Shown in pieces: positions 12,796-30,948 of a stretch of DNA of 64,000 nucleotides. Origin of the DNA: Escherichia coli (lineage in GTDB: Bacteria > Pseudomonadota > Gammaproteobacteria > Enterobacterales > Enterobacteriaceae); the NCBI RefSeq assembly GCF_003991155.1, contig NZ_CP031293.1; one strand, 5' to 3'. Each line of letters opens with the position of its first letter. Position 1 is the first letter of the stretch. The notes beneath the pieces are model-generated. The model ran no database searches. It saw only the letters and a program-made list of their open reading frames with translations, and was not told where the DNA came from. Made by a program: the position numbers and the translations under genes.

Positions 12796-13143
12796 TTACG
12801 AATTACTGCGGCGCTGTTGCTTTTCCGCATGTACGCGTTTCACAATCTTATAAATCCATTGCAGCGTCAGATTATATTTCTTCGCTAATTCGGCGTAGTT
12901 GCGCCCATCGCACTCGCTATAGATTTGGTAGTCACGCTCCGATGCTCGTCCGGAGATCCCCTTAGGGAAATAAATGCTTTGTCCGCCCCAGTTACGCATC
13001 ATTCGGTCGGCAATGGCAAAGCCCACATTTTCTGCCGATGAACTGTCGAGATTGATGCTTTCAATCAGAACTTGCGATGCATGAAAAGCCAGGTCGTTAA
13101 TGATCTCCGGTGTCCGGGCCATCTCTTTTGATTTTCGTATCAT
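12796..13143 (-). CDS. Mor/C-family (phage Mu middle/late) transcriptional activator
   Basis: 115-aa ORF; C-terminus GGQSIYFPKG...RDYQIYSECDGRNYAELAKKYNLTLQWIYKIVKR matches the conserved Mor/C HTH region (Mu Mor GGGQVYIPRG...RIWNDFNGRNVSELTTRYGVTFNTVYKAIRR); GGAG RBS 7 nt upstream. Confidence 0.8.
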   Translation of the reverse strand: MIRKSKEMARTPEIINDLAFHASQVLIESINLDSSSAENVGFAIADRMMRNWGGQSIYFPKGISGRASERDYQIYSECDGRNYAELAKKYNLTLQWIYKIVKRVHAEKQQRRSNS

Positions 13144-14903: not shown

Positions 14904-14904
14904 A

Positions 14905-14941: not shown

Positions 14942-15047
14942 ACCATTCAATTTTTTCTCTAAATCACATTAAAAGATTCTTCACCTTCGCTGCTTCAGAA
15001 TACATTTCAACGATAACGAAGTGAGCGGTAATTAAGGTACAGCCTAT

Positions 15048-15697: not shown

Positions 15698-17111
15698 TTA
15701 TCTGCACGGTGTAGAAACTATTGAAATTGAAACCGGCCCGCGTCCGGTTAAAGCGGTAAAATCCGCCGTCATCGCTTTAATCGGTACAGCCCCCTGCGGT
15801 CCGGTAAATAAACCAACATTATGCCTTTCTGAAAGCGATGCTGCGCAGTTTGGCTCGACTCAGGCTAACTTTACGATCCCACAGGCACTGAAGGCAATTT
15901 ATGACCACGGTGCCGGTACGGTGGTGGTGATTAACGTGCTGGATCCGGCAAAACATGGCTCCAACATCAGCAATGAGAGTATCACTTTTGATGCTAACAA
16001 CCAGGCGAAGCTCGCTCACCGCAATGTGCGTAACGTGGTACTAAAGCCCTCTTCATCAAATTCATCAACCTTTAACACCGCAGCATTTAGCGTAGATGAA
16101 CAAACAGGCATAATTACCCGTAAAGGAGCCGACATTCCTCCTGGTGCGAAAGTTTGTGCCTATTATTCCTGGTGCGACCCTACAAAGGTCACCGCAGCCG
16201 ATATTATCGGTACCGTAAATACCGCAGGCGACCGCACGGGGATGAAACTGCTACAGGACACCTATAACCTGTATGGTTTCTACGCCAAAATCCTGCTTGC
16301 TCCCGTGTTCTGTACGCAAAAATCAGTAACTACAGAGCTGATTGCACAAGCGGAAAAACTTGGTGCGATTACCTACATTGATGCCCCGATTGGGACGACA
16401 TTCCAGCAGGTATTGGCAGGACGCGGTTCGCAAGGGGCTATCAACTTCAACACCAGCTCTGATCGTGCGCGTTTATGTTACCCACACGTCAAAGTTTACG
16501 ATGGCATCACTAACCAGGAAGTTCTCGAACCGCTCTCTTCGCGCGCTGCCGGGCTACGTGCCAAAGTAGACCTCGAAAAAGGTTTCTGGTGGAGCAACTC
16601 AAACCAAGAAATTCAGGGTATTACCGGTATTGAACGTTCGCTTTCCGCAATGATTGATGATCCACAAAGCGAAGTGAATCAGCTAAACGAAAACGGCATT
16701 ACCACTATTTTCAATAGTTACGGCTCTGGTCTGCGCTTGTGGGGCAACCGCACTGCAGCGTGGCCTACCGTGACCCATATGCGTAACTTTGAAAACGTCC
16801 GCCGGACAGGCGATGTAATTAATGAGTCAATCCGTTATTTCAGTCAGCAGTATATTGATATGCCGATTAATCAGGCGCTGATTGATGCCCTGACCGAATC
16901 GGTAAATACCTGGGGCCGTAAGCTGATTGCCGACGGCGCACTGCTTGGCTTTGAATGCTGGTACGATCCGGCGCGAAATTCACCGACTGAACTCAGCGCT
17001 GGGCATTTATTGCTGAGCTATAAATTCACCCCACCGCCGCCGCTGGAACGTCTGACGTTTGAAACTGAAATTACTTCTGAATATTTAGTCTCTCTGGAGA
17101 GCAATAGCTAA
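15687..17111 (+). CDS. Contractile phage tail sheath protein
   Basis: About 474-aa ORF starting MAANYLHGVETIEIETGPRPV...; size and N-terminal motif typical of Mu gpL / P2 FI-type sheath proteins; RBS GAGGAAA upstream of the ATG at 15687. Confidence 0.85.
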   Translation: MAANYLHGVETIEIETGPRPVKAVKSAVIALIGTAPCGPVNKPTLCLSESDAAQFGSTQANFTIPQALKAIYDHGAGTVVVINVLDPAKHGSNISNESITFDANNQAKLAHRNVRNVVLKPSSSNSSTFNTAAFSVDEQTGIITRKGADIPPGAKVCAYYSWCDPTKVTAADIIGTVNTAGDRTGMKLLQDTYNLYGFYAKILLAPVFCTQKSVTTELIAQAEKLGAITYIDAPIGTTFQQVLAGRGSQGAINFNTSSDRARLCYPHVKVYDGITNQEVLEPLSSRAAGLRAKVDLEKGFWWSNSNQEIQGITGIERSLSAMIDDPQSEVNQLNENGITTIFNSYGSGLRLWGNRTAAWPTVTHMRNFENVRRTGDVINESIRYFSQQYIDMPINQALIDALTESVNTWGRKLIADGALLGFECWYDPARNSPTELSAGHLLLSYKFTPPPPLERLTFETEITSEYLVSLESNS

Positions 17112-17635
17112 TGGCTGGAAAAATTCAAATTAACCGTATTACCAACGCCAATATTTATCTCGATGGTAATAACCTTTTAGGTCGTGCAACCGAAATTAAA
17201 TTGCCGGATGTCAGTTTAATTATGCAGGAGCATAAAGCACTGGGCATGGTGGGTAAAATCGAACTCCCGGCGGGTTTCGATAAACTGGAGGGCGAAATTA
17301 AATGGAACTCCTTCTATCAGGACGTAATGCGTAAAACGGCAAACCCGTGGCAGGCGGTTGCATTACAGTGCCGCTCCAGTATTGATTGCTATAACTCCCA
17401 GGGGAAAGCGAATCAATTAGCGCTAGTGACACATTTAACCGTGATGTTTAAAAAGAATCCACTGGGCACATTTAAACAGAATGAAAACCCGGAATTCAGC
17501 AGCGCCTTTGGTTGCACTTATATTAAACAAGTAGTTGATGGTGAAACGCTGCTTGAACTTGATTATATGGCCAATATTTTCCGGGTTAATGGTGTGGATC
17601 AATTAAGTACCTATCGCAATAACATCGGTGGCTAA
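17111..17635 (+). CDS. Phage tail tube protein
   Basis: 174-aa ORF directly following sheath (TAATG overlap); sheath-tube order conserved in contractile tails. Confidence 0.8.
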   Translation: MAGKIQINRITNANIYLDGNNLLGRATEIKLPDVSLIMQEHKALGMVGKIELPAGFDKLEGEIKWNSFYQDVMRKTANPWQAVALQCRSSIDCYNSQGKANQLALVTHLTVMFKKNPLGTFKQNENPEFSSAFGCTYIKQVVDGETLLELDYMANIFRVNGVDQLSTYRNNIGG

Positions 17636-17685
17636 GTTATTCGGGGCTACGGCCCCGAACTTTGCAAAATAAATAAGGACACAAA

Positions 17686-18003
17686 ATGAAAGAACATTAT
17701 ATCTTACAGTTCCCGTTTACTTCAGCGGCGGGAGACGTAATTAACACTCTGCAATTACGTCGCCTGAAAGTAAAAGATATGCGCAACGCGCGCCGGATCA
17801 GCGAAAAACCTGAAGAGTGGGATGAACCGCTAATGGCGGCAATGACCGGACTGGTGCCAGAAGATTTAGCTGAAATGGATTTGCTGGATTACCAGGCATT
17901 GCAGAAACGATTTCAATCCATGCTTAGCGTGGCTACAGAATCCGCCACTGTTATGGCAAGCGATGGCGTTACTGGCGAGATGGTTTCGCTTTCCACCCAG
18001 TGA
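17686..18003 (+). CDS. Putative tail assembly chaperone (gpE-like position)
   Basis: 105-aa acidic ORF between tube and tape measure genes. Confidence 0.5.
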   Translation: MKEHYILQFPFTSAAGDVINTLQLRRLKVKDMRNARRISEKPEEWDEPLMAAMTGLVPEDLAEMDLLDYQALQKRFQSMLSVATESATVMASDGVTGEMVSLSTQ

Positions 18004-18192
18004 GATAGACGCCCTTACCGTCGATGACTTTAGCAACTGGCTGGATGAAGCCAGCGCCCAAATAAAAATCGAATATGACTCGCAGACCTGATGTCTGCGA
18101 GTTTCCCAAGCCCGTCAGGTTTATTTCTTCCCTGCCCCTTTTTTTAGAAAAATAACCAGCGGGCCATTATCAATATTTAAAGAGAAACAATT

Positions 18193-20568
18193 TTGGCCAA
18201 CGATATTATTACCCAGCTTCAGGCGCGTAATGAGACGTTGACGCAGGCAATAGCCCGTTACGGCTCACTCAACGCCAGAACATTGTTAACTCTCTCTACT
18301 CAGCAGGCGACAGTTATCAAACTAACGCAGCAGCTTGCCGATTCCGCTCTCCGCCTGGAGGAAAATAGCCGCAGCCGCGCTAATCTGATGGAGAAAACCC
18401 AAACATTTGCCGGGCAATTTAGCAAAGTATTCAATGTTGAAGCCCCCGACTGGAAGTTGCCGTATGAGTTTCAGGACAACATGGTCAATATGGCGACCAA
18501 AGGTGGGATGAATGCTACAACCCGCGAGACGCTCAGCCTTAATCTGCGCGACTGGAGCATGGATTTTAACCAGCAGCAGACCACCTTACAGAACGCAGCC
18601 CAAACGCTGATCGAAGGCAATTTGTCGTCGATACAGGATCTCAACCGTTATATGCCGGAGATCGCCAAAGCTGCCACCGCCACGCGCGAAAGTGCTGAAA
18701 CATGGGCGAATGCCGCGCTCGCAACCCATGATCGACTGAATATTGCCCCGGAAAATTTCCACGCCGCGCAAAACATGATGTACGGCATTAGCAAAAGCGG
18801 TGGGCCTGCCATTGCTGAACAAACGCAGTGGATAGAGAAATTTGCAGGTAAAACCGGCGCTCAGGGTCTGGAAGGTATGGCTGAACTGACCGCCACCATG
18901 CAGATCGCCATGAAAAACGGGGCCAGCGCCAGTGCGGCGGCGGAGAATTTCGACCACTTTCTGCAAACCACCTTTTCGAAAAAAACCGATTACTGGTTCG
19001 TCAGCCAGGGCGTTGATCTGCAAGGCTCTCTGCTTGAGCATCAGCAAAACGGTATGGGTGTTAGCGAAGCCATGACTCATATCGTGCAAATGCAGCTTGA
19101 GAAGATGAATCCGGCGATCCTCGACACCTTCAAACGCACCATGCAGATCGAAGATTTATCTGCCCGCAGCAATGCGCTGCAATCGATGGTGACGCAGTTT
19201 AATCTGGGGGAAATGTTCGGCGATGCGCAAACAGTGGAATTCCTGGCCCCTATGCTGGCGAATATGGAGGAATATCGCCAGTTAAAAGCCTCTGCCATGC
19301 AAGCCACCAGCAAGAATCTGATTGATGCCGACTTTTCTGCGCAAATGGCCTCGCCCATTGAACAGACTAAAGCGTTACAGCTGGCGTTAAATGATTTATG
19401 GCTCAGCATTGGCTTGCAATTAATGCCGCTGATTGGCGAGCTGGCACAAAGCCTTACGCCGGTTATTCGTCAGTTCAGCGCCTGGCTACGTGAGCACCCG
19501 ACACTGGTGCAAAACATCGCGAAAATCGTCGGGGCGATTTGGCTGTTTAACGGTGCGCTGAATGTTTTAAAGCTGGGCGCGAACCTCATCACCTCGCCGT
19601 TTATTCGTCTGGTCGATATCTTCCTGAAAGTCAAGGCAAGTCTGGCGCTCACAGGCGGGGCAAGTAAGATGCTATCAGCGGTTAAGTCATTGGGTGGCGG
19701 CGCAAAATGGCTAACGCAACTGCTTGGTCGTGGCCTGATTGGAACATTGAAACTGGTTGGTCGGACCGTTCTCTCACTAGGCCGGGTGCTACTGATGAAT
19801 CCCATTGGTCTGGTCATCACTGCGATTGCGGGCGCTGCTTATCTGATTTATCGCAACTGGGAGCCTATCTCCAGGTTCTTTTCGACCATCTGGCAACGTA
19901 TCACCACGGCCTTTGACGGCGGCATTGCAGGAATTTGTCGGTTGATTCTCGACTGGTCACCGCTGGAGTTGTTCTATAGCGCCTTTTCCAGTGTGATGAA
20001 TTGGTTTGGTGTCGAGATGCCTGCAAGTTTTAGCGAGTTCGGCAGCAATCTTCTGGGCAGTCTGGTTGACGGCATAATGAATGCCTTCCCCGCTCTGAAA
20101 GGCATTATTGATCAGGTAAAAAACGCCATCCCAGACTGGCTAAAAACCACGATGGGTATTAGTACAGAAGGATCGGCTACAGCTATTACAAGCACGACTA
20201 ATACCGCATCCGTCTCCCCCGCGACCGTTGTTCCAGGCGTTGCCGGTGCGATTTTAACGCCGCCGGTGGGCAAACAACTCGCGCCATCCGGCAAAACGGC
20301 TACGCCGTCATCGGCGCCAGCGGCAAAAAATACAGCCGCCAAACCCGTATCTGCCTCTTTACCTGGTAAATCCGTAACCAAAGCGGCGACGCTACCTTCC
20401 CGTTCCTCAGGAAAAGTTCAGGTGAATTTTTCGCCACAAATTACCGTGCAGGGTAACGGACAAAACACCACTAAAGAGATTCAGAACGTGTTGACGATGA
20501 GTAAACGCGAACTGGAAAGAATGATTAACGATGTAATGGCGCAGCAGCAGCGCCGGGGGTATGCCTAA
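18193..20568 (+). CDS. Tail tape measure protein
   Basis: 791-aa ORF, alpha-helical and Ala/Gln-rich with central hydrophobic segments; position after chaperone; start codon uncertain (TTG at 18193 in track). Confidence 0.8.
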   Translation: MANDIITQLQARNETLTQAIARYGSLNARTLLTLSTQQATVIKLTQQLADSALRLEENSRSRANLMEKTQTFAGQFSKVFNVEAPDWKLPYEFQDNMVNMATKGGMNATTRETLSLNLRDWSMDFNQQQTTLQNAAQTLIEGNLSSIQDLNRYMPEIAKAATATRESAETWANAALATHDRLNIAPENFHAAQNMMYGISKSGGPAIAEQTQWIEKFAGKTGAQGLEGMAELTATMQIAMKNGASASAAAENFDHFLQTTFSKKTDYWFVSQGVDLQGSLLEHQQNGMGVSEAMTHIVQMQLEKMNPAILDTFKRTMQIEDLSARSNALQSMVTQFNLGEMFGDAQTVEFLAPMLANMEEYRQLKASAMQATSKNLIDADFSAQMASPIEQTKALQLALNDLWLSIGLQLMPLIGELAQSLTPVIRQFSAWLREHPTLVQNIAKIVGAIWLFNGALNVLKLGANLITSPFIRLVDIFLKVKASLALTGGASKMLSAVKSLGGGAKWLTQLLGRGLIGTLKLVGRTVLSLGRVLLMNPIGLVITAIAGAAYLIYRNWEPISRFFSTIWQRITTAFDGGIAGICRLILDWSPLELFYSAFSSVMNWFGVEMPASFSEFGSNLLGSLVDGIMNAFPALKGIIDQVKNAIPDWLKTTMGISTEGSATAITSTTNTASVSPATVVPGVAGAILTPPVGKQLAPSGKTATPSSAPAAKNTAAKPVSASLPGKSVTKAATLPSRSSGKVQVNFSPQITVQGNGQNTTKEIQNVLTMSKRELERMINDVMAQQQRRGYA

Positions 20569-21521
20569 TGTATGCCGTTTTAGGAGAGATTGAATTTAAG
20601 GTTGTCACATTCTGGGACGGCTTTAAAAGCACAATGGGCGTGGATTACGCCACACATGCCCGTATAGAAGGCAAACCCGGCGTGCAGTTTATTGGCGATA
20701 AGCTGGATATGCTGGCGCTGGAATTTTCCCTGCACAGCCAGTTTTGCCAGCCCACAACAGAGCTGAACCGACTGCGTGAAGCCATGCTTGCTCACAAGGC
20801 GATGGCACTGGTATTTGGCAATGGCGATTATCGCGGCTGGTTTGTGATTACGGAGCTAACCGCCACCCACCAGCACACCGATCCCTGGGGCAATGTGATT
20901 GCCCAAAACGGAACGATGTCGCTCCAGGAGTACACCGGCGATCCTAAAAATCCACTTTTACCTCCGGCGATTACCACCCAGGAGCCCAACATCGAGGAAA
21001 AGGCGAGCGATTTTCCCGACAAGGTGGAGTCCTGGTTTGATCAGATATTAAACGCCATTGAAGAAGGTATGCGTAAGGCCAAAGAGATGCTGGATGAACT
21101 GACACAATCCATTGAAGATATTAAAAAAACGGTGGCAAAAGTGAAAGCAATGATTAAAGAGGCCAAAGCGTTAAAAGAAAAGTGTGAAAAGATAATTACG
21201 TCATTGAAAAAGACAATCGACGCCATCGAAACCCTGTTTAAACAGCCAATGGATCTGCAAACGCTGGCAGGCCTACCAAAAGCGTTGTCGGCGCAGATTA
21301 AAGCTTTACTGGGTAACATGCCAGGTATCCGGGACTGCGCCAATGACGCCAGTACGCTGGTTGACCATGCTCAGGCGCTTTTCGACGACATTACCAGCGA
21401 CATCGCCGAAGCGACGTTCGATAAAGCCACGTCGTTGGTTGAGCAGGCACGTACAACGGTACAACAAACCACTCCCGCAGTGAGCCAGCTTGCTGCCGTA
21501 ACCATTACCAGGAGCTGGTAA
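20568..21521 (+). CDS. Tail protein, P2 gpU-like N-terminal domain with coiled-coil C-terminal extension
   Basis: N-terminal region (ARIEGKPGVQFIG...WFVITELTATHQHT) resembles the P2 gpU / Mu N N-terminal family; overlaps TMP stop. Confidence 0.7.
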   Translation: MYAVLGEIEFKVVTFWDGFKSTMGVDYATHARIEGKPGVQFIGDKLDMLALEFSLHSQFCQPTTELNRLREAMLAHKAMALVFGNGDYRGWFVITELTATHQHTDPWGNVIAQNGTMSLQEYTGDPKNPLLPPAITTQEPNIEEKASDFPDKVESWFDQILNAIEEGMRKAKEMLDELTQSIEDIKKTVAKVKAMIKEAKALKEKCEKIITSLKKTIDAIETLFKQPMDLQTLAGLPKALSAQIKALLGNMPGIRDCANDASTLVDHAQALFDDITSDIAEATFDKATSLVEQARTTVQQTTPAVSQLAAVTITRSW

Positions 21522-21730
21522 TGCGATACCTTGAACATATCACCACCGATGGCGAACGCTGGGATAACCTGGCATGGCATTACTACGGTGATGCGCTGGC
21601 TTATGAACGCATAATCGCCGCCAATCCACATGTAGCCATTTACCCGGTACTGCCTTCCGGTATTCAGCTCATTATTCCGGTCATTTCCGTTAATAAAACC
21701 TTATCGGAGATCCCACCATGGCTGAGATGA
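21521..21730 (+). CDS. Tail protein X-like (small LysM-like tail protein)
   Basis: 69-aa ORF with AANP...LP.G pattern as in P2 gpX; located between U-like and D-like genes as in R-type pyocin clusters. Confidence 0.7.
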   Translation: MRYLEHITTDGERWDNLAWHYYGDALAYERIIAANPHVAIYPVLPSGIQLIIPVISVNKTLSEIPPWLR

Positions 21731-22758
21731 GCGTAACTGGTGGCGTCTTTGCCACACTCACGCCCATTTTTACCCTCTGGTATGGGCATAAAGATATCAC
21801 TTATGACATCACACCCTATGTCACCAGCATCAGTTACCACGACAGCATCAAAAACGAGTCGGATACCATCGCAATTACACTGGATGACACAGATGGACGC
21901 TGGATAAAAGAGTGGTATCCCGGCAAAGGCGATACGCTGGCGCTGCATATAGGTTATCAGGGGGAAAAGCTGCTCGATTGTGGCCAGTATATTATTGATA
22001 AAATTGATATTTCAGCGCCACCTTCCACGGTAAATATTGATGGCATCGCCACTTCCGTCAATCAGGCGCTGCGCACCCGTAACAGCCAGGGCTTTGAAGA
22101 AACGACGCTTTCGGCGATCGCCAGCCGTATTGCCCAAACGCACGGTCTGAAACTGGTGGGCAAAATCGAGTCGCTCACCATCGACCGGGTAACGCAGTAT
22201 GGTGAAACCGATGTCGGATTTCTCAAACGTCTGGCCAGTGAATATGGTTATGCCGTAAAAGTGACGACAAAAGAGCTGATTTTTTCACATTTACCCACGC
22301 TGCGCTGCCTGACGCCTGTGAAAAAGATCGATCGCAAAGAGGTTTCTCATTTTACCTTCAAAGACACCATTAACCGGATCTACAAGAACGCCACCGTACA
22401 GCATCAAAATAGTAAGAAAAAAGAACTGGTTATCTACACTCACAACAGCCAGCAAAAACCATCTGTCCGTGGAGTCGGCACTAGTGCCGACACGCTAAAA
22501 CTGAACAGTCGGGCGACGGACGTTGGCGCAGCACAGGCAAAGGCTAACGCTGCACTCGACAGCCACAACGAATATCAGCAAACCGGAACGCTCACAATGA
22601 TGGGCTGCCCGGAACTGACGGCGGGCAATAAAATTGAACTGACCGATTTTGGCGTGATTTCCGGTCAGTGGCTGATTGATAAATCTACTCACAGTTTTGT
22701 GCGCAGCGGCTATACCACTGAAATCGACGTGTCACGCGGGCCAGCGACCAGCCAGTAA
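21718..22758 (+). CDS. Phage late control D-like / Mu gpP-like tail (baseplate hub) protein
   Basis: 346-aa ORF in the conserved U-X-D position. Confidence 0.75.
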   Translation: MAEMSVTGGVFATLTPIFTLWYGHKDITYDITPYVTSISYHDSIKNESDTIAITLDDTDGRWIKEWYPGKGDTLALHIGYQGEKLLDCGQYIIDKIDISAPPSTVNIDGIATSVNQALRTRNSQGFEETTLSAIASRIAQTHGLKLVGKIESLTIDRVTQYGETDVGFLKRLASEYGYAVKVTTKELIFSHLPTLRCLTPVKKIDRKEVSHFTFKDTINRIYKNATVQHQNSKKKELVIYTHNSQQKPSVRGVGTSADTLKLNSRATDVGAAQAKANAALDSHNEYQQTGTLTMMGCPELTAGNKIELTDFGVISGQWLIDKSTHSFVRSGYTTEIDVSRGPATSQ

Positions 22759-22767
22759 GGAGGAAAT

Positions 22768-23469
22768 ATGAAAGGAGTAACCCGTCAAACGGGGATTATC
22801 AGCGATATTGACGAAACCAGTGTTCGGGTACGGGTCACTCTACCAGAGTGTGACAATCTGAAGAGCAACTGGCTTGCGGTACTTCAACGCAATTCCCAGG
22901 ACAATAAAGACTACTGGCTACCGGATATGGGCGAGCAAGTGGAAGTTCTGCTGGACGATAACGGTGAAGATGGCGTGGTGCTGGGTGCCGTTTATTCTAC
23001 GGTTGACACCGCGCCTGTAGCCTCGCGCGACAAACGTTACGTCCAGTTTTCTGATGGCGCAGCGTTTGAATATGACCGCAGCACGCACCAGCTGACGATT
23101 AACGGCGGTATCGAGAAAATCGTGATTGAGGTTATCGACAGCACCCGCCTGACATCGCCCAACGTTGAGATTAAAGCCCAACACGTCACCGTGACTTCCG
23201 ATACCGTCGATGTTAAAGCGACCGATGTCAGCATCGACGCCACTAAGGTCGAGGTTAAAGCAGCAGCAGTGACGGTAGATGCGCCCATGAGCACCTTTAC
23301 TGGCAACGTCACGGTAATGAAAAAACTCACCTGGCTTGGCGGGATGGCAGGAAGTGGAGGCATCGGTAACGCAGCCACGATAACCGGCAATGTCAACGTG
23401 ATCGGCAACGTTCAGGCCAGCGGCGCATTGCAGGACAGCGGTGGCAACTCCAACCACCATTCACACTGA
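22768..23469 (+). CDS. Baseplate assembly protein V-like (central spike)
   Basis: 233-aa ORF; N-terminal OB-fold-like region and C-terminal repetitive beta region (VTVTSDTVDVKATDVSIDATKVEVKAAAVTVDA) typical of gpV spikes. Confidence 0.8.
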   Translation: MKGVTRQTGIISDIDETSVRVRVTLPECDNLKSNWLAVLQRNSQDNKDYWLPDMGEQVEVLLDDNGEDGVVLGAVYSTVDTAPVASRDKRYVQFSDGAAFEYDRSTHQLTINGGIEKIVIEVIDSTRLTSPNVEIKAQHVTVTSDTVDVKATDVSIDATKVEVKAAAVTVDAPMSTFTGNVTVMKKLTWLGGMAGSGGIGNAATITGNVNVIGNVQASGALQDSGGNSNHHSH

Positions 23470-23472
23470 CTT

Positions 23473-23505
23473 TTAACCCGCCTGATGGCGGGTTTTCTCT
23501 TTTTA
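23473..23505 (+). terminator. Hairpin (AACCCGCCtgatGGCGGGTT) plus T-rich tract after the spike gene; possible partial intra-operon terminator
   Basis: Perfect 8-bp stem followed by TTCTCTTTTT. Confidence 0.5.
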
Positions 23506-23567
23506 ATCAATCAGTTTTCTAAATCGCTTTAATATCTCCACAGCCCGTTCAGGGCGAAAATACCCTC

Positions 23568-23927
23568 ATGAACACAAAAACACGCCCCTCAACGCTGCAC
23601 TGGCAACCGGCCTTGCAGCGGCCTGAAGAATACGTCTGCGGGCTGGATGATATTCACCAGGCAATACACATCATTCTGCGTACACCGCGCGGCAGTGATC
23701 CCCACAGACCGCTGTTTGGCAGCAACTTGTGGCACTACATCGATTACCCCATCGAGCGGGCTATCCCGCATGTGGTACGGGAGTCGGTGGAAGCCATCCG
23801 CCAGTGGGAACCGCGCTGTCGGTTGCTGAAGGTGACACCAGTAATCGACGGCGAACATCTGACGTTACGTGTGCAATGGCGCGCCGCTGACGGCGTTATC
23901 AACTCAACGGAGGTGTTATGGCGATAG
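23568..23927 (+). CDS. Baseplate wedge protein gpW / gp25-like
   Basis: 119-aa ORF; PRGSDPHRPLFGSNLWHYIDYP resembles the GPW_gp25 family core. Confidence 0.75.
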   Translation: MNTKTRPSTLHWQPALQRPEEYVCGLDDIHQAIHIILRTPRGSDPHRPLFGSNLWHYIDYPIERAIPHVVRESVEAIRQWEPRCRLLKVTPVIDGEHLTLRVQWRAADGVINSTEVLWR

Positions 23928-25033
23928 CCGAACCCAATTTTATTGACCGCGATCCTGCGCAAATTACCAGTGAGATGATTGCGCAATACGAAGATGCCAG
24001 TGGTAAAAAACTCTATCCGGCACAGGCTGAGCGGTTGCTCATCGACCTGTTTGCCTATCGTGAAAACCTTGTACGCATCGCCATTCAGGAAGCGGCGAAA
24101 CAAAACCTGGTCGCGTATTCCCGCGCGCCAATGCTGGATTATTTAGGGGAGTTGGTGGGAGTTCACCGTTTGCCTGCGCAGCCTGCAAAAACGACGTTGC
24201 AGTTTTCGGTCGTTAGTGCGTATCCCGGCAATATCCTGATTCCCCAGGGGACGCGGGCCAGTGCCTCTGATAGCGTGATGTTCGCCACCGATGAAGATGT
24301 TCTGCTTCCGGCCAGGAGTTTGCATATCGCCGTTCCTGCCACCAGCCTCGCAGCAGGTGAACAGGGTAACGGCTGGCAGCCTGCACAAATTAGCGCACTG
24401 GTCGACAGGATTGGTCATTATGACATCAACGTAACCAACCTGACTGCGTCAACGGGCGGCTGCGGTGAAGAGAGCGATGACGCATTGCGCCAGCGTATCC
24501 AACTGGCACCAGAAAGCTTTAGTAATGCGGGCAGCTATGGTGCCTACCGCTTTCATACGCTTTCTGTTAGCCAGTCGATTATTGACGTTGCAGTACTGGG
24601 GCCGGACGAGGGATTGCCAGAAGGCTGCGTGGAGATCTACCCGCTAACCCTGAATGGTCTACCCGGCACGGAGTTGCTGGCGCAGATTGAACAAGAAGTC
24701 AGCAAGGAGAAAAAACGACCGCTGACCGACAAAGTGAGTGCGAAATGCGCTCTTCGAGTGCCGTATGAGATCCGTGCGCAGCTAATGCTGTTTACCACCG
24801 CCGATCAGGAGACAACGCTGGCTGCGGCGCGTAAAGCGATTAGCCTCTGGACGCAACAGCGGCAGAAACATCTGGGGCAGGACATTGTGCCAAACCAGAT
24901 AATCAAAGTGTTACAGGTCGATGGCGTCTATGACGTTGCGCTGAATATGCCTACAAAACGTATTTTGCAGGCGCATGAATGGGCGGAATGCACTGCAATA
25001 GACGTCACGATTGCCGGAGTCAGCGATGGATAA
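23918..25033 (+). CDS. Baseplate protein J-like
   Basis: 371-aa ORF after gpW with GGAGG RBS; W-J-I order. Confidence 0.8.
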   Translation: MAIAEPNFIDRDPAQITSEMIAQYEDASGKKLYPAQAERLLIDLFAYRENLVRIAIQEAAKQNLVAYSRAPMLDYLGELVGVHRLPAQPAKTTLQFSVVSAYPGNILIPQGTRASASDSVMFATDEDVLLPARSLHIAVPATSLAAGEQGNGWQPAQISALVDRIGHYDINVTNLTASTGGCGEESDDALRQRIQLAPESFSNAGSYGAYRFHTLSVSQSIIDVAVLGPDEGLPEGCVEIYPLTLNGLPGTELLAQIEQEVSKEKKRPLTDKVSAKCALRVPYEIRAQLMLFTTADQETTLAAARKAISLWTQQRQKHLGQDIVPNQIIKVLQVDGVYDVALNMPTKRILQAHEWAECTAIDVTIAGVSDG

Positions 25034-25742
25034 ATTGCTGCCACCGCCGCCGCTTGCCAGCGATGAGCGTTTTTCGATTCTGGCAAACATCGCCGCCGAG
25101 CGTTTTGCCCAACTCGATCTGACGGCGTTGATGGTTTATCTGGTCGACCTGGTTGATGCTTCGGCATTACCAGCCCTTGCAGAACAATTTCACGTTCAGG
25201 GGCTGGAAGGTTGGTTATTTACCACCGATGAGCGGGAGAAACGCGAGTTAATTAAACAAGCCATTGAACTGCATAAATATAAAGGAACAATTTGGGCGGT
25301 ACGGCGAGTGCTGGAAATACTTTCCTTACCCGGAACTATTTCAGAATGGTTTGAATATGGGGGAAGGGCTTATTTTTTTAAGGTAAATATTACACTAGAG
25401 GAAAAAGGATTAAATGAAGATGAATTCAATGCACTTATCACATTAATTCATGAATATAAAAATGTTCGTTCAAAGCTGGAAAGCATTGTTATTTGGCTTA
25501 TTAATCGAAGCCCAATACCAGTTATTGGCAGCGCCATGCAAGGAGGGGAAGTCATTACAGTATTGCCTCCTGTTGCAGAAAGCCTCAGCCAGTCATCAGG
25601 AATATTTTTAGCGACGGGTTATTGTGTGGAGGAATATATCCAACTACTACCTTATCAACCCGATCGCCTTACACAATCCCAACCGATGAAGGTCGGCACA
25701 GGATACTGGAGCACCGAAATTATGTCTGTATATCCGGAGTAA
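25026..25742 (+). CDS. Tail protein I-like (baseplate)
   Basis: About 238-aa ORF from ATG 25026 overlapping J stop; position before tail fiber. Confidence 0.7.
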
Positions 25743-25744
25743 TA

Positions 25745-27325
25745 ATGGCAAGTGAATTTTTTACAATATTAACTGCTGCAGGCAAAGCCAAAATTGCCTC
25801 AGCACTGGCCGAGCAAAAACAGATCCGTCTGCAAACTATGGTAGTTGGCGACGGTAATGGTAAATATATCGAACCGACAGAAAGTCAGACCAAAGTAGTC
25901 CATGAGGTCTGGCGTGGTCAGCTCAATACATTAAAAATTGCGCCAGATAATCCGGCCTGGGTTATCGCAGAAGCGATTATTCCCGAACAAGTCGGAGGCT
26001 GGTATGTACGCGAAGTTGGGTTACTGGATACCGACGGCACGCTGGTCGCTATTGGTAAATTCCCGGAAACCTATAAGCCACGATTACCTGCGGGGGCCAG
26101 TAAGCAAATCGTTATACGCGCGGTCATGGAAGTCACCAATGCAGACGCGGTGACGCTTTTGATCGACCCTTCAGTCGTTGTGGCAACCAGGGAATATGTC
26201 GATGACGCGTTGAAAACACATCAGCAATCACGAAATCATCCTGATGCGACGCTGACACAAAAAGGTTTTACGCAGCTCAGTAATGCAACTAATAGCGATG
26301 ATGAGACTAAAGCAGCCACGCCAAAAGCGGTAAAAACGGCATATGACCTGGCAAATAGCAAAGCCGCAACCAGTCATACTCATGCCTGGAATCAGATTAC
26401 TGGTATCCCTGACGGTACACTGACGCAGAAAGGAGTCGTTAAACTTAACAACACAACAAATAGCACCAGTACAACGGAAGCTGCAACGCCAAGTGCGGTT
26501 AAAGCAGCGATGGACAAGGCTATTGCTGCGGCGCCGTCCAGCCATACCCATGCCTGGGGGCAAATAACAGGTATCCCCGACGGTACGCTGACACAAAAAG
26601 GGGTCGTGAAACTTAATAATGCGACCAACAGCACCAGTACGACGGAAGCTGCGACGCCGAACGCGGTTAAGGCAGCGATGGATAAGGCTATTGCTGCGGA
26701 AAGCTGTCCTGTTGGGATGCCTATTCCCTGGCCATCTGATTCTGTACCTTCAGGCTACGCTCTGATGACAGGTCAGACATTTAATAAAACCTCCTATCCC
26801 AAACTGGCAATTGCATATCCATCTGGTGTTATTCCTGATATGCGCGGATGGATAATTAAAGGAAAACCATCCAGTGGGCGCGCTATATTATCTACTGAAC
26901 TGGATGGAGTTAAATCACATAACCATACGGGCAGTATTTCGAGTACTGATTTAGGGACGAAAACCACACCCCTCACAGACTTGGGGACTAAAACTGCATC
27001 ATCATTTAACCATGGAAATAAAACAACAAGTTCATCTGGCTCAGGCTCGGCAACTGCAACAGTAAGAACAGGGACATCTTCACCAGAGGGCCAAGGCGAC
27101 TGGACATCATATGGCCCTGGTACCGGATCATCTTTGGCAATTAATGTTCCATCACACGTTCATAGTGTTACAATTGGTTCCCATTCGCACACTGTTGCGC
27201 TCGGCACCCATTCGCATTCAATTGCACTTGGTTCCCATAACCACTCCCTAACCATTAATAATACCGGCAGCACCGAAAACACCGTCAAAAATATCGCATT
27301 CAACTATATTGTGAGGCTAGCATGA
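25745..27325 (+). CDS. Tail fiber protein (P2 gpH-like N-terminal anchor, repeat region, His-x-His tip)
   Basis: N-terminus [23 protein letters not shown]...HEVWRGQLN...[12 protein letters not shown] resembles the conserved P2 H N-terminal domain; three tandem ~45-aa repeats; C-terminal [22 protein letters not shown]. Confidence 0.85.
26244..26700 (+). repeat. Intragenic tandem repeats (three ~135-bp units) within the tail fiber gene
   Basis: Repeated [12 protein letters not shown](A/T)[12 protein letters not shown](S/N)[12 protein letters not shown]...HTHAW(N/G)QITGIPDG seen at DNA and protein level. Confidence 0.7.
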
Positions 27326-28029
27326 ATACTTTTACCTTTTCTGATGAAGCTCAAATACTAACTGTATATAATTTTTCACAAGACTCCCAAGAATATATCG
27401 GTGAGTCTGATGCATACATTGCACCTAATACAGGCTTGCCAAATTATTGCACATTAATTTCACCTCCCGAAAAGGCTCCTGGTTTTACTCCAGTGTGGGA
27501 GAATGAAACATGGAGACTTATTGAAGATCATCGAGGCCAAACTGTTTATAACAAAGTTGATGGTAGCCAGCTTATTATTCAAGAATTGGGCCAATTACCT
27601 GAAAATGTAACAGTCATTTCCCCGACAGGTTCTTTTGAACGTTGGGATGGTGAAAAATGGCAACCATCTATAACCGATGCTAAAGAGGCGAAATACTCTG
27701 CAATCAAAAATCAACGCGATGCCATCACAACCGATTACATCATCATCAACAACCATCACTTCCACAGTGATACAAATAGCCGTATCCAACAGCTTTCACT
27801 CACAAAAATGGGAGCGGAGAAAAAAATTCCGCCAGGGTTAATGTGGAAAACTAAAAATAATGGTCTGATTGAGTTAACCAACGAAATCGCTGCCCAGTTT
27901 GAATCGGTCACCATGGATCACGATATGCGCTTGTTCGCAAACGCCCAGCGTCATATCGCGGCGGTGGAAGCACTGGACGATATTCAGGCGGTGCTCGACT
28001 ACGATTATTCAACAGGCTGGCAACCATGA
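27322..28029 (+). CDS. Tail fiber assembly (chaperone) protein
   Basis: 235-aa ORF overlapping the fiber stop (ATGA); lower GC than surrounding genes, typical of host-range modules. Confidence 0.75.
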
Positions 28030-28481
28030 GTAAAACCACTGTCTGGCTCGCTTGTTATAAGGGCCGAACAGAGCACCGTGGTATTGCCCGACTGGCTGAC
28101 TGGCTTACCCGTAAAATCACACGCGGTAGTTATTCCCACTGTGAATTAGCCGTTAAGCATGGTGAAAAGAGATACCTTTGTTACTCCGCATCACTGCGCG
28201 ATCGCGGTGTACGCGGAAAAATAATGCCATTGCCAGCGGATAAGTGGGATATGCTGCCGCTCCAGGCCAGCCTTCAGGATGTGGAAACTTTTTTCCGTAA
28301 ACATGATGGCAAAAAATATGACTGGCGCGGAGCATTAGGAATTATTATCGGTAATAAAGAACAGCGCGATCGCCTGTTTTGCAGTGAATTTTGTGCTGAA
28401 TTTCTGCAACTGAAGGAAAGCTGGCGCTATTCTCCAAACCACTTGTACGCTTTAGTCAGTAGCTGGCAATATCAGCCGTAA
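28026..28481 (+). CDS. Hypothetical protein (151 aa), Cys/His-containing, translationally coupled to tail fiber assembly gene
   Basis: Intact ORF with ATGA overlap to upstream gene; no confident family assignment. Confidence 0.5.
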   Translation: MSKTTVWLACYKGRTEHRGIARLADWLTRKITRGSYSHCELAVKHGEKRYLCYSASLRDRGVRGKIMPLPADKWDMLPLQASLQDVETFFRKHDGKKYDWRGALGIIIGNKEQRDRLFCSEFCAEFLQLKESWRYSPNHLYALVSSWQYQP

Positions 28482-28495
28482 AATAACGCCGGGCA

Positions 28496-29296
28496 TCACG
28501 CCCGGCGCATTACCGTCTGGTACAGTAAACTATCCAGTTCCTTAACGTCCCCTTCTCTGCTATCCGGTAACACTGGTGGAGTTTCCCCGCGCGCCAGCTC
28601 CGCGCGAATAAACGCATGTAACAAAGGACGACGCGGACCATATTCCGCCTCCCCCGCTCGCTGTTTACGCTCCAGCAGTTCGTCTATTTCTACGCGTAAC
28701 GGCGCATCAAGCTCGCTTCCCGCCAGTAACTCGGAAAAGCGCATTGGCGGCACGCCTTTTCCCGCTTCAACCCAGCGTACGGCCAGCAGCGGACGCAGCA
28801 CGTAAAAGTATTTTTTCAGTCGAACTTCATCGCCCTGCAAATAGCCGCGGAAGTTTTTCTGCGCCATCGAATAGTAATGCCAGCGTGCACGCAACGAAGA
28901 AAACCACATTGGGACCATTGCCTTAAGCGCCGTTATCGTTTCTTCATCTTGTTGATAGACCACCGGAGAATCCAGCCATTCTATCAGCGTCGGATTCGCG
29001 CCTTTCAATAATCCCAGCGCCTTACGCCACTCCCAACCGGAAACATCTAATTCGTCGTCGATGGGCAGCTCGATAACATCGCGCGGTGACTCTACACGCA
29101 GATACCATTCCAGCGGATGGACATACAAAAACCGTACATCGTAGTCGCTATCGGGCGAGGCAAATCCCCAGCCGCGGCTGCCTGATTCGCAGGCGTACAG
29201 CACTTTCACGCCATAGAGACGTTCTATTTCTTTTAACTGCTGCGATACCCGTTCGCGCATCGCAGCACTGACTCCATTTAATGGCATGTTACTCAC
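28496..29296 (-). CDS. Pol-beta-superfamily nucleotidyltransferase-domain protein
   Basis: 266-aa ORF with N-terminal motif ESGSRGWGFASPDSDYDVRF (GS-x9-12-D-x-D nucleotidyltransferase signature); C-terminal ~200 aa unassigned. Confidence 0.7.
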   Translation of the reverse strand: MSNMPLNGVSAAMRERVSQQLKEIERLYGVKVLYACESGSRGWGFASPDSDYDVRFLYVHPLEWYLRVESPRDVIELPIDDELDVSGWEWRKALGLLKGANPTLIEWLDSPVVYQQDEETITALKAMVPMWFSSLRARWHYYSMAQKNFRGYLQGDEVRLKKYFYVLRPLLAVRWVEAGKGVPPMRFSELLAGSELDAPLRVEIDELLERKQRAGEAEYGPRRPLLHAFIRAELARGETPPVLPDSREGDVKELDSLLYQTVMRRA

Positions 29297-30420
29297 CCTT
29301 TGATATTAACCAACCCATGCAGAACCTGATCCAGACCGCCAAATACAGAGATGTTATCGATCCGCTCAGCCACTCTCTCCAGCGTTTCCAGTTCTTTTAA
29401 GCGTAACGCCACCGGGTTGTTTTCCATGACTTTAGCGGTATTGAGTAACGAACGTGTCGCTGCCGTTTCTTCACGCCGACGAATCACATTCGCCTGCGCA
29501 GATTTCTCTGCCTCAACCAGCTGCGCGAGGATATTTTTCATATCACCAGGCAGGACGATATCTTTCACCCCTAATGAGGCAATCTCCATACCAAATGGCA
29601 ACATACGCGATTTAACCTGTTCGCTGACAACGTCATCAATGACCTGTTTATCTTCCAGCAACTCATCCAGCGTACGCGTACCTACCGCTTCACGCAGTGC
29701 AAATTGCAATTCCCGATACAAATGATCAATCGGCTTCGTTAACTGACTAAATGCCAATAACACGTCGCTGTAGCGCCAGTTGGCGGCGAGGTTAATCCGC
29801 AGATTGACCTTATCTTTCGTTAAGATTTCTTGCCCGCTGACTTCCAGTACCTGCAAGCGGGTGTCAACCACTTCAGCTTCAACCAGATGGTTAATTTTCC
29901 AGTACGCAGTCAGCCCCGGCGGTAACAGCGCCTGCGTTTCACCATCGATTTTCAGTACACCTACGTGCCAGGCCGGAACCTGCACCGTCAGTATCGCATC
30001 GCGGCCTTTAACTGCCCCTTTGCGCCGTGGCTGCAATACCGCATTCATCACCTCCGTTTGAACCTGGACTTGCTGCGTATTCATCCGCACCAGCGTCAAA
30101 TCATCCTCTACACGCCAGTACAAACGACGCGTTGATGGCGGCAGGATCTCCAGCAAAATACCGTCCATATACAACGCCCCGGCTTCAGTCTCCGACAAGT
30201 CGGCCACCACGCAATATCTTTCCACCCAATCAGGCTGAAAGCGGCGCAAATAATCCGCCAGCACGTCGGGAACTTCGCTGCCATCGAACGTAATCAGCAA
30301 GACTTCTGGCGTATTTAACCAGGGTAAAAGATGCTCGCCTGCATGCAGCACTTTGTAGTAATCGCCATTTCTGGAGAGTAATGCCAGCTGATCTTTTCTT
30401 ACGCTTATTTTCTTAATCAT
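29293..30420 (-). CDS. SPFH (band-7/stomatin-prohibitin-flotillin) domain protein with ~170-aa N-terminal extension
   Basis: 375-aa ORF; C-terminal half shows SPFH-like region followed by coiled coil (EAEKSAQANVIRRREETAATR...); 4-nt overlap with downstream NTase gene; AGGAA RBS. Confidence 0.75.
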   Translation of the reverse strand: MIKKISVRKDQLALLSRNGDYYKVLHAGEHLLPWLNTPEVLLITFDGSEVPDVLADYLRRFQPDWVERYCVVADLSETEAGALYMDGILLEILPPSTRRLYWRVEDDLTLVRMNTQQVQVQTEVMNAVLQPRRKGAVKGRDAILTVQVPAWHVGVLKIDGETQALLPPGLTAYWKINHLVEAEVVDTRLQVLEVSGQEILTKDKVNLRINLAANWRYSDVLLAFSQLTKPIDHLYRELQFALREAVGTRTLDELLEDKQVIDDVVSEQVKSRMLPFGMEIASLGVKDIVLPGDMKNILAQLVEAEKSAQANVIRRREETAATRSLLNTAKVMENNPVALRLKELETLERVAERIDNISVFGGLDQVLHGLVNIKG

Positions 30421-30948
30421 TATCTATTCCTTGCTTAACAGCCGTCGCGGAAGCAGATACGAAGCGACAGGGGAATTCCCTTTTGCCTGTTACCCGGCGT
30501 CTTTATCGGCGACGTTATCGGGGATCGCTGACTGTGCAATCCCTCATTTTTTATTTAATAAGTTACAACCAGTATTCATTTCAGGAATGAATTCGGGAAT
30601 CGAACCCATAATTGGCGTCAAAGGCTGACGGAACACGCCCGGAAAACAGCCTGGCCGTTCCTGGTGTGCCGACGGGGTTTAATCCCCTTTGAAATTCAGT
30701 ATCAACGCAAAAGTGTTATTGCGAGAAGCGTGCCAGAATTGAGAAAAACCATTAACAAAATGAAAAATAAAGAGTTAATAAATTACTGTTGTTTGTAGGG
30801 GGAAAACTTTTTGCTAAATTTTTATCTGTATTTATCGTCAATTATCAAGAAAGATAGATATTTAAGAAGGGAACAAAGGAATATTATCAGTTCTGCTCGC
30901 AAACGAATTCCCGTACACTGAACTCTCTGGCTCACTGAGGGCACCATC

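What the first reader, a model, noticed from the sequence alone, without database searches (positions are those of the whole stretch)
28026..28481. Uncharacterised 151-aa Cys/His-containing ORF coupled to the fiber assembly gene
Intact ORF overlapping the fiber assembly stop by ATGA, so it is probably co-translated with the tail genes, yet it has no recognisable tail-protein features. The slot after the fiber assembly gene is where Mu-like and P2-like elements carry cargo; conserved Cys and His residues hint at an enzymatic (possibly peptidase/amidase-like) role, which is speculative.
Basis: inference. Interest (0 to 1): 0.3.

Follow-up and report, generated by a model that had tools for sequence, protein, structure and literature searches.

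The report
Phage tail-fibre-linked YiiX-like cysteine enzyme
The 151-residue ORF is a real, strongly conserved phage gene for a small cysteine enzyme with the "scrambled-order" papain fold of lipid-acting YiiX-type hydrolases; across many phages it sits directly behind the tail-fibre chaperone gene, and its substrate is still unknown.

Summary
ORF 28026-28481 (+) is intact, overlaps the stop of the fibre-assembly gene by ATGA, and is under strong purifying selection (dN/dS 0.04-0.07).

The window is E. coli. The ORF is the last gene of a tail-only, Mu/P2-like island between lysC and yjbD, syntenic with Salmonella LT2 "Def4" (ortholog STM4198).

Pfam, NCBIfam and PADLOC find nothing. [quoted passage not shown] Three lines of evidence place it in the circularly permuted NlpC/P60 superfamily:
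- A 63-sequence profile hits PDB 3kw0 (E 3.8e-5).
- hhalign against a YiiX alignment gives 86% probability, E 5e-6.

His38, Tyr98 and Cys119 are invariant and align with the YiiX catalytic residues. The YiiX triad glutamate is absent.

The family has about 4,400 clusters and nearly always follows a fibre plus a roughly 200-residue chaperone gene. Among the enterobacterial copies compared, it is inherited as one block with the chaperone's DUF4376 domain, while the fibre is swapped.

Best reading: a late-expressed thiol acyl-hydrolase or acyl-transferase, probably acting on lipid-type acyl bonds. The substrate is inferred, not shown. It is a new variant of a known enzyme kind, of moderate interest.

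The parts
28026..28481 (+). 151-aa ORF: stand-alone circularly permuted NlpC/P60 (YiiX-like) cysteine enzyme. Putative catalytic residues are His38 (YSHCE), Tyr98 (KYDW) and Cys119 (FCSE).
27322..28029 (+). Tail-fibre assembly/chaperone gene (235 aa). Its stop overlaps the target's start by ATGA. The N-terminal half is Caudo_TAP-like.
   Evidence: Pfam Caudo_TAP and DUF4376; phrog_1807, phrog_105, phrog_2837. PGAP name 'DUF4376 domain-containing protein'.
27676..28026 (+). DUF4376 domain of the chaperone (residues 119-235). It is co-inherited with the target ORF as one conserved block.
   Evidence: Backbone homology among E. coli/Salmonella copies resumes at about 27702-27712 and runs through the ORF. 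Identity of the target tracks DUF4376 identity (Spearman 0.70) but not the chaperone N-terminus (0.22). All 15 phage records with a relative of this domain carry a permuted-papain gene just downstream.
25745..27325 (+). Tail fibre gene (P2 H-like N-terminus, fibre repeats, collar domain). Together with the chaperone N-terminal half it forms the exchangeable host-range cassette (about 25530-27702).
   Evidence: Pfam Phage_tail_fib, Phage_fiber_2 and Collar. PGAP coordinates. Only 67-72% or no nucleotide similarity between otherwise 90-95% identical islands.
12796..13143 (-). Mor-family transcription activator at the left end of the island. It is the presumed activator of the late (lysis plus tail) genes that end with the target ORF.
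   Evidence: PGAP annotation. Same arrangement in Salmonella, with STM4219 noted in the record. The regulatory link is inferred, not tested.
28486..28508 (-). GC-rich hairpin plus T-run: minus-strand terminator of the convergent nucleotidyltransferase/slipin pair. It marks the right edge of the tail cluster (junction at about 28477) and is not part of the target gene.
   Evidence: Terminator scan. Genomes without the tail cluster share homology starting at window 28477.

Best explanation
Shown or well supported. The ORF encodes a small (17.8 kDa, pI 9.5), soluble enzyme without a signal peptide. It has the circularly permuted NlpC/P60 papain-like fold and is a divergent sister of the YaeF/YiiX (MEROPS C92) family.

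Inferred expression. It is made only when the tail genes are made (phage late phase or island induction). The reasons are that it has no promoter of its own and that its start codon overlaps the stop of the fibre-chaperone gene.

Inferred chemistry, by homology. His38 deprotonates Cys119, which sits at the N-terminus of a helix. The thiolate attacks an acyl carbonyl whose oxyanion is stabilised by Tyr98, forming an acyl-thioester. This is resolved by water (hydrolase) or by an acceptor (acyltransferase).

Inferred substrate. Its nearest relatives bind or cleave fatty-acyl groups, so the most likely substrate is a lipid-type acyl ester or amide of the host cell: phospholipid, lipoprotein or a lipid A precursor. 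On this reading it is an accessory envelope-remodelling enzyme that belongs to the constant part of the fibre module (DUF4376 domain plus this gene). It would not be a fibre-folding factor and not lysogenic-conversion cargo.
For: Fold and class:
- A 63-sequence profile hits 3kw0 'cysteine peptidase' (BcPPNE) at E 3.8e-5 and YiiX at E 0.62.
- hhalign against a YiiX alignment gives prob 86%, E 5e-6. It aligns YSH38 to YSH49, Y98-D99 to Y115-D116 and FC119SE to YC128SE.
- These residues are invariant in 63 homologs. They match the catalytic Cys/His/Tyr described for BcPPNE and YiiX (PMC3142127).

Lipid direction of relatives:
- YiiX crystallised with a fatty acid in a hydrophobic S1 pocket (PMC3142127).
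- LnsA is required for lipoprotein N-acylation (PMC7387801).
- Tox-Act1 is a phospholipase (PMC12994826).

Late, coupled expression:
- ATGA overlap.
- No sigma-70-like site in 27000-29000.
- A 4-nt overlap in 44 of 79 related loci.

Fixed partner of fibre chaperones:
- 52 of 63 upstream neighbours match phrog_2837, 35 of 63 have DUF4376 and 12 have Caudo_TAP.
- The same holds for distant members and for Alteromonas phage V22 ORF26-27-28.
- Downstream neighbours vary.

Backbone, not cassette.

Not needed for fibre folding: V22 gp26 plus gp27 alone give a functional RBP (PMC7289586).

Cytoplasmic: maximum 19-residue hydropathy is 0.14, so there is no signal peptide or TM segment.
Against: - No activity or substrate has been measured for any member.
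- The acidic third triad residue of YiiX/BcPPNE (Glu64) aligns to Ser54 or Ala55 here, so catalytic competence is not guaranteed.
- PF05708 does not detect the protein. Only 2 of 63 members reach E 0.005.
- A cytoplasmic location limits access to envelope substrates until lysis.
- The tight co-inheritance with DUF4376 hints at a protein partner or substrate rather than a lipid one.
Confidence: 0.45

Rival explanations
1. Peptidase or isopeptidase acting on a protein of the fibre module. It could trim or release the DUF4376 chaperone or the fibre tip. Alternatively it could strip a host-attached modifier from tail proteins, for example a ubiquitin-like tag, as a counter-defence.
For: - Papain-like Cys/His/Tyr site.
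- The gene is inherited as a block with the DUF4376 domain.
- 15 of 15 phage records with this DUF4376 type carry it downstream.
- Translational coupling.
Against: - V22 fibre matures with its chaperone alone (PMC7289586).
- 26 of 63 upstream partners belong to an unrelated chaperone family with no DUF4376 similarity.
- An AF2 fusion of the DUF4376 domain and the enzyme with paired rows gave pTM 0.49, meaning no confident docking.
- The anti-defence idea rests on my own recollection of ubiquitin-like conjugation to tail fibres and was not tested here.
Confidence: 0.17
2. Cell-wall (peptidoglycan) amidase or endopeptidase, either helping lysis or carried on the particle to breach the wall.
For: - It belongs to the NlpC/P60 superfamily, whose canonical members cut peptidoglycan (PMC3142127 introduction).
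- In Acidovorax phage AP1 and Pseudomonas phage pAN it lies just upstream of lysis genes.
- A minority of downstream neighbours are M15 endolysins.
Against: - The permuted branch has a hydrophobic S1 site and no demonstrated peptidoglycan activity (PMC3142127, PMC12994826).
- The island already has its own holin and lytic transglycosylase at the opposite end.
- There is no signal, SAR or cell-wall-binding domain.
- Proximity to lysis genes is not general.
Confidence: 0.1
3. Ordinary moron or lysogenic-conversion cargo sitting in the variable slot after the fibre-assembly gene, benefiting the host rather than the particle.
For: - The slot between the fibre chaperone and the next module does hold variable genes: methylases, glycosyltransferase and acetyltransferase nearby.
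- It is the last gene of the island.
- A H. parasuis GWAS listed the homolog among accessory genes associated with clinical isolates (PMC4532294).
Against: - No own promoter or terminator.
- 4-nt overlap with the late gene in most loci.
- GC content is like its neighbours: 0.477 for the ORF vs 0.45-0.49 in flanking windows.
- It is present in a virulent marine myovirus.
- It belongs to the conserved backbone, not the exchanged part.
Confidence: 0.1
4. Catalytically dead scaffold (pseudoenzyme) retained for binding only.
For: - Loss of the triad glutamate.
- The protein is smaller than YiiX.
Against: - His38, Cys119, Tyr98, Ser120 and Glu40 are invariant across sequences down to about 33% identity. 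This is unusual for a dead site.
- The third residue is dispensable in LRAT and replaced by water in PPPDE1 (PMC3142127).
Confidence: 0.06
5. Enoyl-CoA hydratase/carnitine racemase, as labelled in PHROG 1128 and many GenBank records.
For: Only the label itself.
Against: - No crotonase-family Pfam hit even at E 0.1.
- The fold is papain-like, not crotonase.
- Another group's HHpred on a phage homolog also gave cysteine peptidase/phospholipase (bioRxiv 10.1101/2025.06.28.662109).
Confidence: 0.01

Closest known systems
YaeF/YiiX family, MEROPS C92, Pfam PF05708 (E. coli YiiX, PDB 2if6; B. cereus BcPPNE, PDB 3kw0)
   Same: - Circularly permuted NlpC/P60 fold with His before Cys.
- Shared motifs: YSH, YD and [FY]CSE.
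- The catalytic Cys starts a helix.
   Different: - No signal peptide or lipobox.
- About 30-50 residues shorter.
- The triad Glu64 is replaced by Ser/Ala.
- It has extra invariant residues: Glu40, Asp59, the G61-V62-R63 motif and Lys65.
- It falls below the Pfam model's detection.
- It is phage-encoded, next to fibre chaperones.
Alteromonas phage V22 ORF28 'permuted papain-like amidase', and MW202455 UOF76987.1 with the same name
   Same: - Same family by hhalign (prob 96% and 97.9%).
- Same position directly after a DUF4376 fibre chaperone.
   Different: - Only 20-30% identical over the aligned region.
- V22 is a virulent marine myovirus, whereas the E. coli copy sits in a tail-only chromosomal island.
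- Neither protein has been studied experimentally.
Lipid-acting permuted NlpC/P60 enzymes: LRAT/PLAAT (H-REV107), S. aureus LnsA, T6SS effectors Tox-Act1 and TseH, MARTX RID
   Same: - Permuted papain core with a Cys/His dyad.
- An acyl-thioester mechanism is expected.
   Different: - Much weaker similarity than to YiiX.
- Those proteins are secreted, membrane-anchored or toxin-borne, and some come with immunity proteins.
- No immunity-like conserved partner is seen downstream here.
Morons in the slot after the fibre-assembly gene in Mu-like and P2-like phages (from general knowledge: Mu gin/mom, P2 Z/fun)
   Same: - Same map position.
- In SuMu the com/methylase genes follow it.
- In a P2-like contig it lies between the fibre genes and the sheath gene.
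   Different: - Translationally coupled and promoter-less.
- Conserved across unrelated phage backbones.
- Co-inherited with the chaperone's constant domain.

Membership tests
Circularly permuted NlpC/P60 (PPNE) superfamily | Papain-like alpha+beta core in which the catalytic His (strand) precedes the catalytic Cys (N-terminus of a helix) in sequence | tested here: met
Circularly permuted NlpC/P60 (PPNE) superfamily | Invariant Cys/His dyad plus the signature oxyanion Tyr | tested here: met
   H38, C119 and Y98 are invariant in 63 homologs. They align to YiiX H49, C128 and Y115. The residue roles are taken from PMC3142127.
YaeF/YiiX family (C92, PF05708) | Recognised by the family model at its curated threshold | tested here: not met
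   No PF05708 hit for the protein at E<=0.1. Only 2 of 63 relatives reach E 0.005. The relationship appears only with profiles.
YaeF/YiiX family (C92, PF05708) | Acidic third triad residue (Glu64 of YiiX/BcPPNE) on the strand after the His strand | tested here: not met
   Glu64 aligns to Ala55 (HMMER) or Ser54 (hhalign). No acidic residue is conserved at that position. Invariant Glu40 or Asp59 might substitute; this was not testable without coordinates.
YaeF/YiiX family (C92, PF05708) | Hydrophobic S1 pocket or tunnel that binds a fatty acyl chain | not testable with these tools
YaeF/YiiX family (C92, PF05708) | Export signal or lipoprotein anchor (typical of the family, not strictly defining) | tested here: not met
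   The N-terminus [13 protein letters not shown] enters the first strand at residue 6. Maximum 19-residue hydropathy is 0.14.
Tail-fibre assembly / structural tail protein | Similarity to Caudo_TAP, DUF4376 or any tail family | tested here: not met
   Pfam and NCBIfam give nothing. The only PHROGs hits are phrog_1128 and phrog_22304, neither a tail family.
Enoyl-CoA hydratase/crotonase (database label) | Crotonase fold or an ECH Pfam match | tested here: not met
   No such Pfam hit. The fold is papain-like.
Known anti-phage defence proteins (PADLOC) | Match to a PADLOC model | tested here: not met
   0 families at E<=0.01.

The most novel reading that the evidence does not exclude
The enzyme and the constant DUF4376 domain of the fibre chaperone form a two-part device that modifies an acylated target at the moment tail fibres are made or used. 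One version is a lipid- or lipoprotein-directed hydrolase or acyltransferase brought to the host outer membrane by chaperone-capped fibre tips. Another is a deconjugase that protects tail proteins from host tagging. Either would be a previously unrecognised enzymatic layer of phage and tailocin host-recognition modules, present in thousands of phage lineages.
Probability: 0.12. Interest if true: 0.7.

Novelty: new variant of a known kind. Interest (0 to 1): 0.4.

Why it matters
- A family of about 4,400 sequence clusters has no Pfam or NCBIfam model. It is named 'hypothetical protein' in E. coli RefSeq and wrongly 'enoyl-CoA hydratase' in PHROGs and many GenBank records. A correct label (permuted NlpC/P60, YiiX-like cysteine hydrolase/acyltransferase) would improve the annotation of many phage and prophage genomes.
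- The near-obligatory position behind tail-fibre chaperones, and the block inheritance with DUF4376, identify an unstudied enzymatic accessory of receptor-binding modules. These modules are now routinely swapped to retarget phages and tailocins.
- If the enzyme affects particle yield, host range or producer-cell survival, engineered fibre cassettes that omit or include it would behave differently.
- It is also a tractable entry point to the still unknown biochemistry of bacterial YiiX-type enzymes.

Tried and rejected
- Direct family scans. Pfam, NCBIfam and PADLOC on the protein gave no hits. A single-sequence search of PDB sequences gave only a marginal 3kw0 hit, E 0.4.
- afdb50 fold library. 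Unavailable.
- Domain fusions as function hints. Longer family members are N- or C-terminal extensions without recognisable domains, probably start-codon miscalls or low-complexity tails.
- A conserved downstream partner (immunity or membrane protein). None found. The neighbours are methylases, sheath genes, endolysins or host genes.
- Remote DUF4376 similarity in the second class of upstream chaperones. None, hhalign prob 0.5%.
- AF2 on a DUF4376-linker-enzyme fusion with 23 paired rows, testing for a predicted complex. Both domains were confident but pTM was 0.49, so no docking was supported. This is inconclusive because of the shallow alignment and the monomer model.
- Literature. I found no experimental study of the phage family. 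The SuMu proteomics paper does not mention gp51 (PMC3447690), and the AP1, Moraxella prophage and Pm86 papers were uninformative. The E. coli ST131 'tailocin' paper describes P2-like prophage regions compared with R2 pyocin; I found nothing linking them to this island and did not pursue it.
- Lysogenic-conversion and peptidoglycan-hydrolase readings. Considered and down-weighted for the reasons given under the rival explanations.

Full report
**1.

The window carries an intact ORF at 28026..28481 on the + strand (ATG start, 151 codons). The sequence around the start reads caaccATGAgtaaa. The ATG (28026-28028) therefore overlaps the TGA stop (28027-28029) of the upstream gene 27322..28029.

The upstream product is a tail-fibre assembly type protein. 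It has a Caudo_TAP match at residues 71-134 and a DUF4376 domain at residues 119-227, and it matches phrog_105 'tail fiber assembly'.

The ORF is not a chance reading frame:
- Against Salmonella and other enterobacterial orthologs (75-93% amino-acid identity), dN/dS is 0.04-0.07.
- It has 89 relatives in the 90%-clustered protein database.
- A profile of 63 of them finds 4,402 50%-identity clusters at E<=1e-3, nearly all stand-alone proteins of 135-170 residues.
- In complete E. coli genomes it is single-copy in 202 of 5,426. In every listed row where the gene is largely covered, it is named 'hypothetical protein' and lies beside a DUF4376 gene.

**2. Where it sits**

The window is E. coli chromosome, 100% identical to strain 2016C-3878 over the tested stretch. 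K-12 has nothing between lysC and yjbD; window 12743-30818 is extra.

The extra DNA has two parts.

(a) A tail-only phage-derived cluster. It contains a divergent Mor-family activator, holin, lytic transglycosylase, sheath, tube, tape measure, baseplate genes, fibre, fibre chaperone and finally the target ORF. It has no head, packaging, replication or integration genes.

(b) A convergent nucleotidyltransferase (RlaP) plus slipin gene pair.

Genomes that have (b) but not (a) share homology with the window from position 28477 onward, which is the target's stop codon. The ORF is therefore the terminal gene of the tail cluster. The hairpin at 28486-28508 is the minus-strand terminator of the neighbouring pair, not of the target.

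The same cluster lies at the same chromosomal site in Salmonella. There the ortholog (77-78% identical) is STM4198 of the defective prophage called Def4, STM4196-4219 (PMC3591323, PMC2137926).

**3. What the protein is**

Direct family scans fail: Pfam, NCBIfam and PADLOC give nothing. [quoted passage not shown] The label recurs in GenBank but has no support. There is no crotonase hit, and the fold is different.

Three independent lines converge on the circularly permuted NlpC/P60 papain-like superfamily, closest to the YaeF/YiiX family:
- **Profile vs PDB sequences.** A profile of alignment A1 hits 3kw0 (B. cereus 'cysteine peptidase', BcPPNE) at E 3.8e-5 and E. coli YiiX at E 0.62.
- **Profile vs profile.** hhalign of A1 against a 22-sequence YiiX alignment gives probability 86%, E 5e-6. 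It superposes YSH38 on YSH49, Y98-D99 on Y115-D116, and FC119SE on YC128SE.

His38, Cys119 and Tyr98 are invariant in 63 homologs that go down to about 33% identity. So are Ser37, Glu40, Ser56, Asp59, Gly61-Val62-Arg63, Lys65, Trp74, Ser120 and Pro137. In the model His38 opens a β-strand and Cys119 opens a helix, as in the solved relatives. The catalytic roles of the equivalent Cys/His/Tyr are described in PMC3142127.

**4. Where it departs from YiiX proper**

- The family model PF05708 does not see it.
- The acidic third triad residue (Glu64) aligns to Ser54 or Ala55.
- It has no signal peptide or membrane segment.
- It is shorter than YiiX.
- Foldseek against the PDB did not recover the relationship, best E 0.19. 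Foldseek against viral models did return phage proteins, one of them named as YaeF/YiiX C92 family.

I therefore file it as a separate, phage-borne sister family inside the permuted NlpC/P60 superfamily, not as a C92 member.

**5. Neighbourhood: a fixed accessory of fibre modules, not random cargo**

I examined 79 related loci from viral contigs.
- A same-strand ORF of about 200-260 residues ends at the target's start, with exactly a 4-nt overlap in 44 loci. In 65 loci the junction lies between a 5-nt gap and a 19-nt overlap.
- The gene before that is fibre-sized.
- Of 63 upstream proteins, 52 match phrog_2837 ('tail protein'), 35 carry DUF4376 and 12 carry Caudo_TAP.
- Another 26 form a second, unrelated family annotated as tail-fibre assembly, with no DUF4376 similarity.
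- Distant members (35-44% identity) sit in the same place. One lies in a P2-like gene order between the fibre genes and the sheath gene.

Named phages show the same pattern: SuMu gp51, Pasteurella Pm86 ORF70, the Moraxella Mcat prophages, Pseudomonas pAN_21 and Acidovorax AP1. Only the Ralstonia jumbo phages carry it isolated.

Downstream genes are not conserved. They include D12 methylases, sheath genes, M15 endolysins and host genes.

Conversely, all 15 phage records with a detectable relative of this DUF4376 domain have a member of the family immediately downstream.

**6. Block inheritance**

Among E. coli and Salmonella copies of the island, the backbone is 75-96% identical up to about window 25530. 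Similarity then collapses across the end of gpI, the fibre and the first half of the chaperone. It resumes at about 27702-27712, which is the start of the DUF4376 domain, and continues through the target ORF.

Over 35 loci, pairwise identity of the enzyme tracks that of the DUF4376 domain (Spearman 0.70) but hardly that of the chaperone's N-terminal half (0.22). For pairs with >=90% identical enzymes, the DUF4376 median is 88% and the N-terminal median is 33%. The pairs are not independent, so the p-values are not meaningful, but the effect size is clear.

The exchangeable host-range cassette is thus the fibre plus the chaperone N-terminus. The DUF4376 domain plus the enzyme form the constant part.

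**7. Link to experiments**

Alteromonas myovirus V22 has ORF26 (fibre/RBP), ORF27 (DUF4376 chaperone) and ORF28. ORF28 was annotated by its authors as 'permuted papain-like amidase' and starts on the last base of ORF27. It is a distant member of this family (hhalign prob 96%, E 3e-9).

In that system, co-expression of the fibre with the chaperone alone yields a functional receptor-binding protein (PMC7289586). The enzyme is therefore not required for fibre folding or binding. The podovirus A5, which shares the fibre-chaperone module, has no listed homolog of ORF28 (PMC10579305).

I tested for a predicted DUF4376-enzyme complex by folding a linker fusion with 23 paired rows. Both domains were confident (pLDDT about 90) but pTM was 0.49, so no docking was supported. 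This is weak negative evidence.

**8. Mechanism**

- **Shown:** fold class, invariant Cys/His/Tyr, coupling to late tail genes, absence of export signals, block inheritance.
- **Inferred from homology:** a Cys119 thiolate/His38 dyad with a Tyr98 oxyanion forms an acyl-thioester, resolved by water or an acceptor.
- **Inferred from relatives:** the substrate is probably a fatty-acyl ester or amide. YiiX crystallised with a fatty acid and BcPPNE has a hydrophobic S1 site (PMC3142127). LnsA is needed for lipoprotein N-acylation (PMC7387801). Tox-Act1 is a phospholipase and TseH showed phospholipase activity (PMC12994826).

My best reading is a late accessory enzyme that remodels acylated components of the host cell. 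The rivals are a protein-directed peptidase or isopeptidase acting on chaperone, fibre or host-attached tags; a peptidoglycan hydrolase; ordinary conversion cargo; and a pseudoenzyme. Their evidence is given in the structured fields. The 'enoyl-CoA hydratase' label is rejected.

**9. Novelty and verdict**

The kind of enzyme is known. Two relatives already carry the name 'permuted papain-like amidase' in GenBank, and another group's HHpred on a phage homolog pointed the same way (bioRxiv 10.1101/2025.06.28.662109).

New here:
- The recognition that the E. coli/Salmonella 'hypothetical protein' belongs to a very large, model-less family.
- Its altered triad.
- Its near-obligatory coupling to fibre-chaperone genes across phage types.
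- Its co-inheritance with the DUF4376 constant domain.

I found no experimental work on it within the searchable library. I rate it a new variant of a known kind, with interest 0.4.

Noticed in passing
window 12743-30818: The lysC-yjbD gap is a variable hotspot. It is empty in K-12. This strain has a tail-only cluster plus a nucleotidyltransferase/slipin pair. Strain 537-20 has a 'zeta toxin family' gene plus the same pair.
   Followed up: partly
window 28496-30420 (-): A convergent two-gene unit: an RlaP-type nucleotidyltransferase (PF10127, E 4e-96) and an SPFH/slipin protein. Homology covering this pair was found in about 1,631 of 5,426 complete E. coli genomes. It has no PADLOC match and could be an unrecognised conflict or repair module.
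   Followed up: no
window 12796-28481: The cluster has a Mor activator, holin, lytic transglycosylase and a complete contractile-tail gene set, but no head, packaging, replication or integration genes. It is syntenic with Salmonella LT2 Def4 (STM4196-4219). It looks like a candidate R-type tailocin; production and activity were not tested.
   Followed up: partly
window 18193-20568: The tape-measure ORF is uninterrupted in the window (791 codons, TTG start). PGAP nevertheless marks the identical stretch in strain 2016C-3878 as a pseudogene with an 'internal stop'.
   Followed up: partly
L009 10748-13583 (Salmonella Infantis copy of the island): The Salmonella version carries a gtrA/gtrB/gtrC-like O-antigen glucosylation operon inserted between baseplate V and W genes, and a hexapeptide acetyltransferase just after the ortholog of the target. 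The E. coli copy lacks both.
   Followed up: no
window 25530-27702: Among otherwise 90-96% identical E. coli islands, the fibre and the N-terminal half of its chaperone are replaced as a cassette (67-72% or no similarity). The right-hand breakpoint is inside the chaperone gene, at the DUF4376 domain boundary.
   Followed up: yes
window 41664-42482 (-): Two small ORFs (149 and 108 aa), annotated 'hypothetical protein', lie between yjbB and metH. K-12 has only a short intergenic gap there.
   Followed up: no
PHROG phrog_1128; GenBank records for SuMu gp51, Pm86 ORF70, RP12 ORF176: [quoted passage not shown] It has even been discussed as a fatty-acid-degradation gene in a recent preprint. The fold and profile evidence contradict it.
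   Followed up: yes
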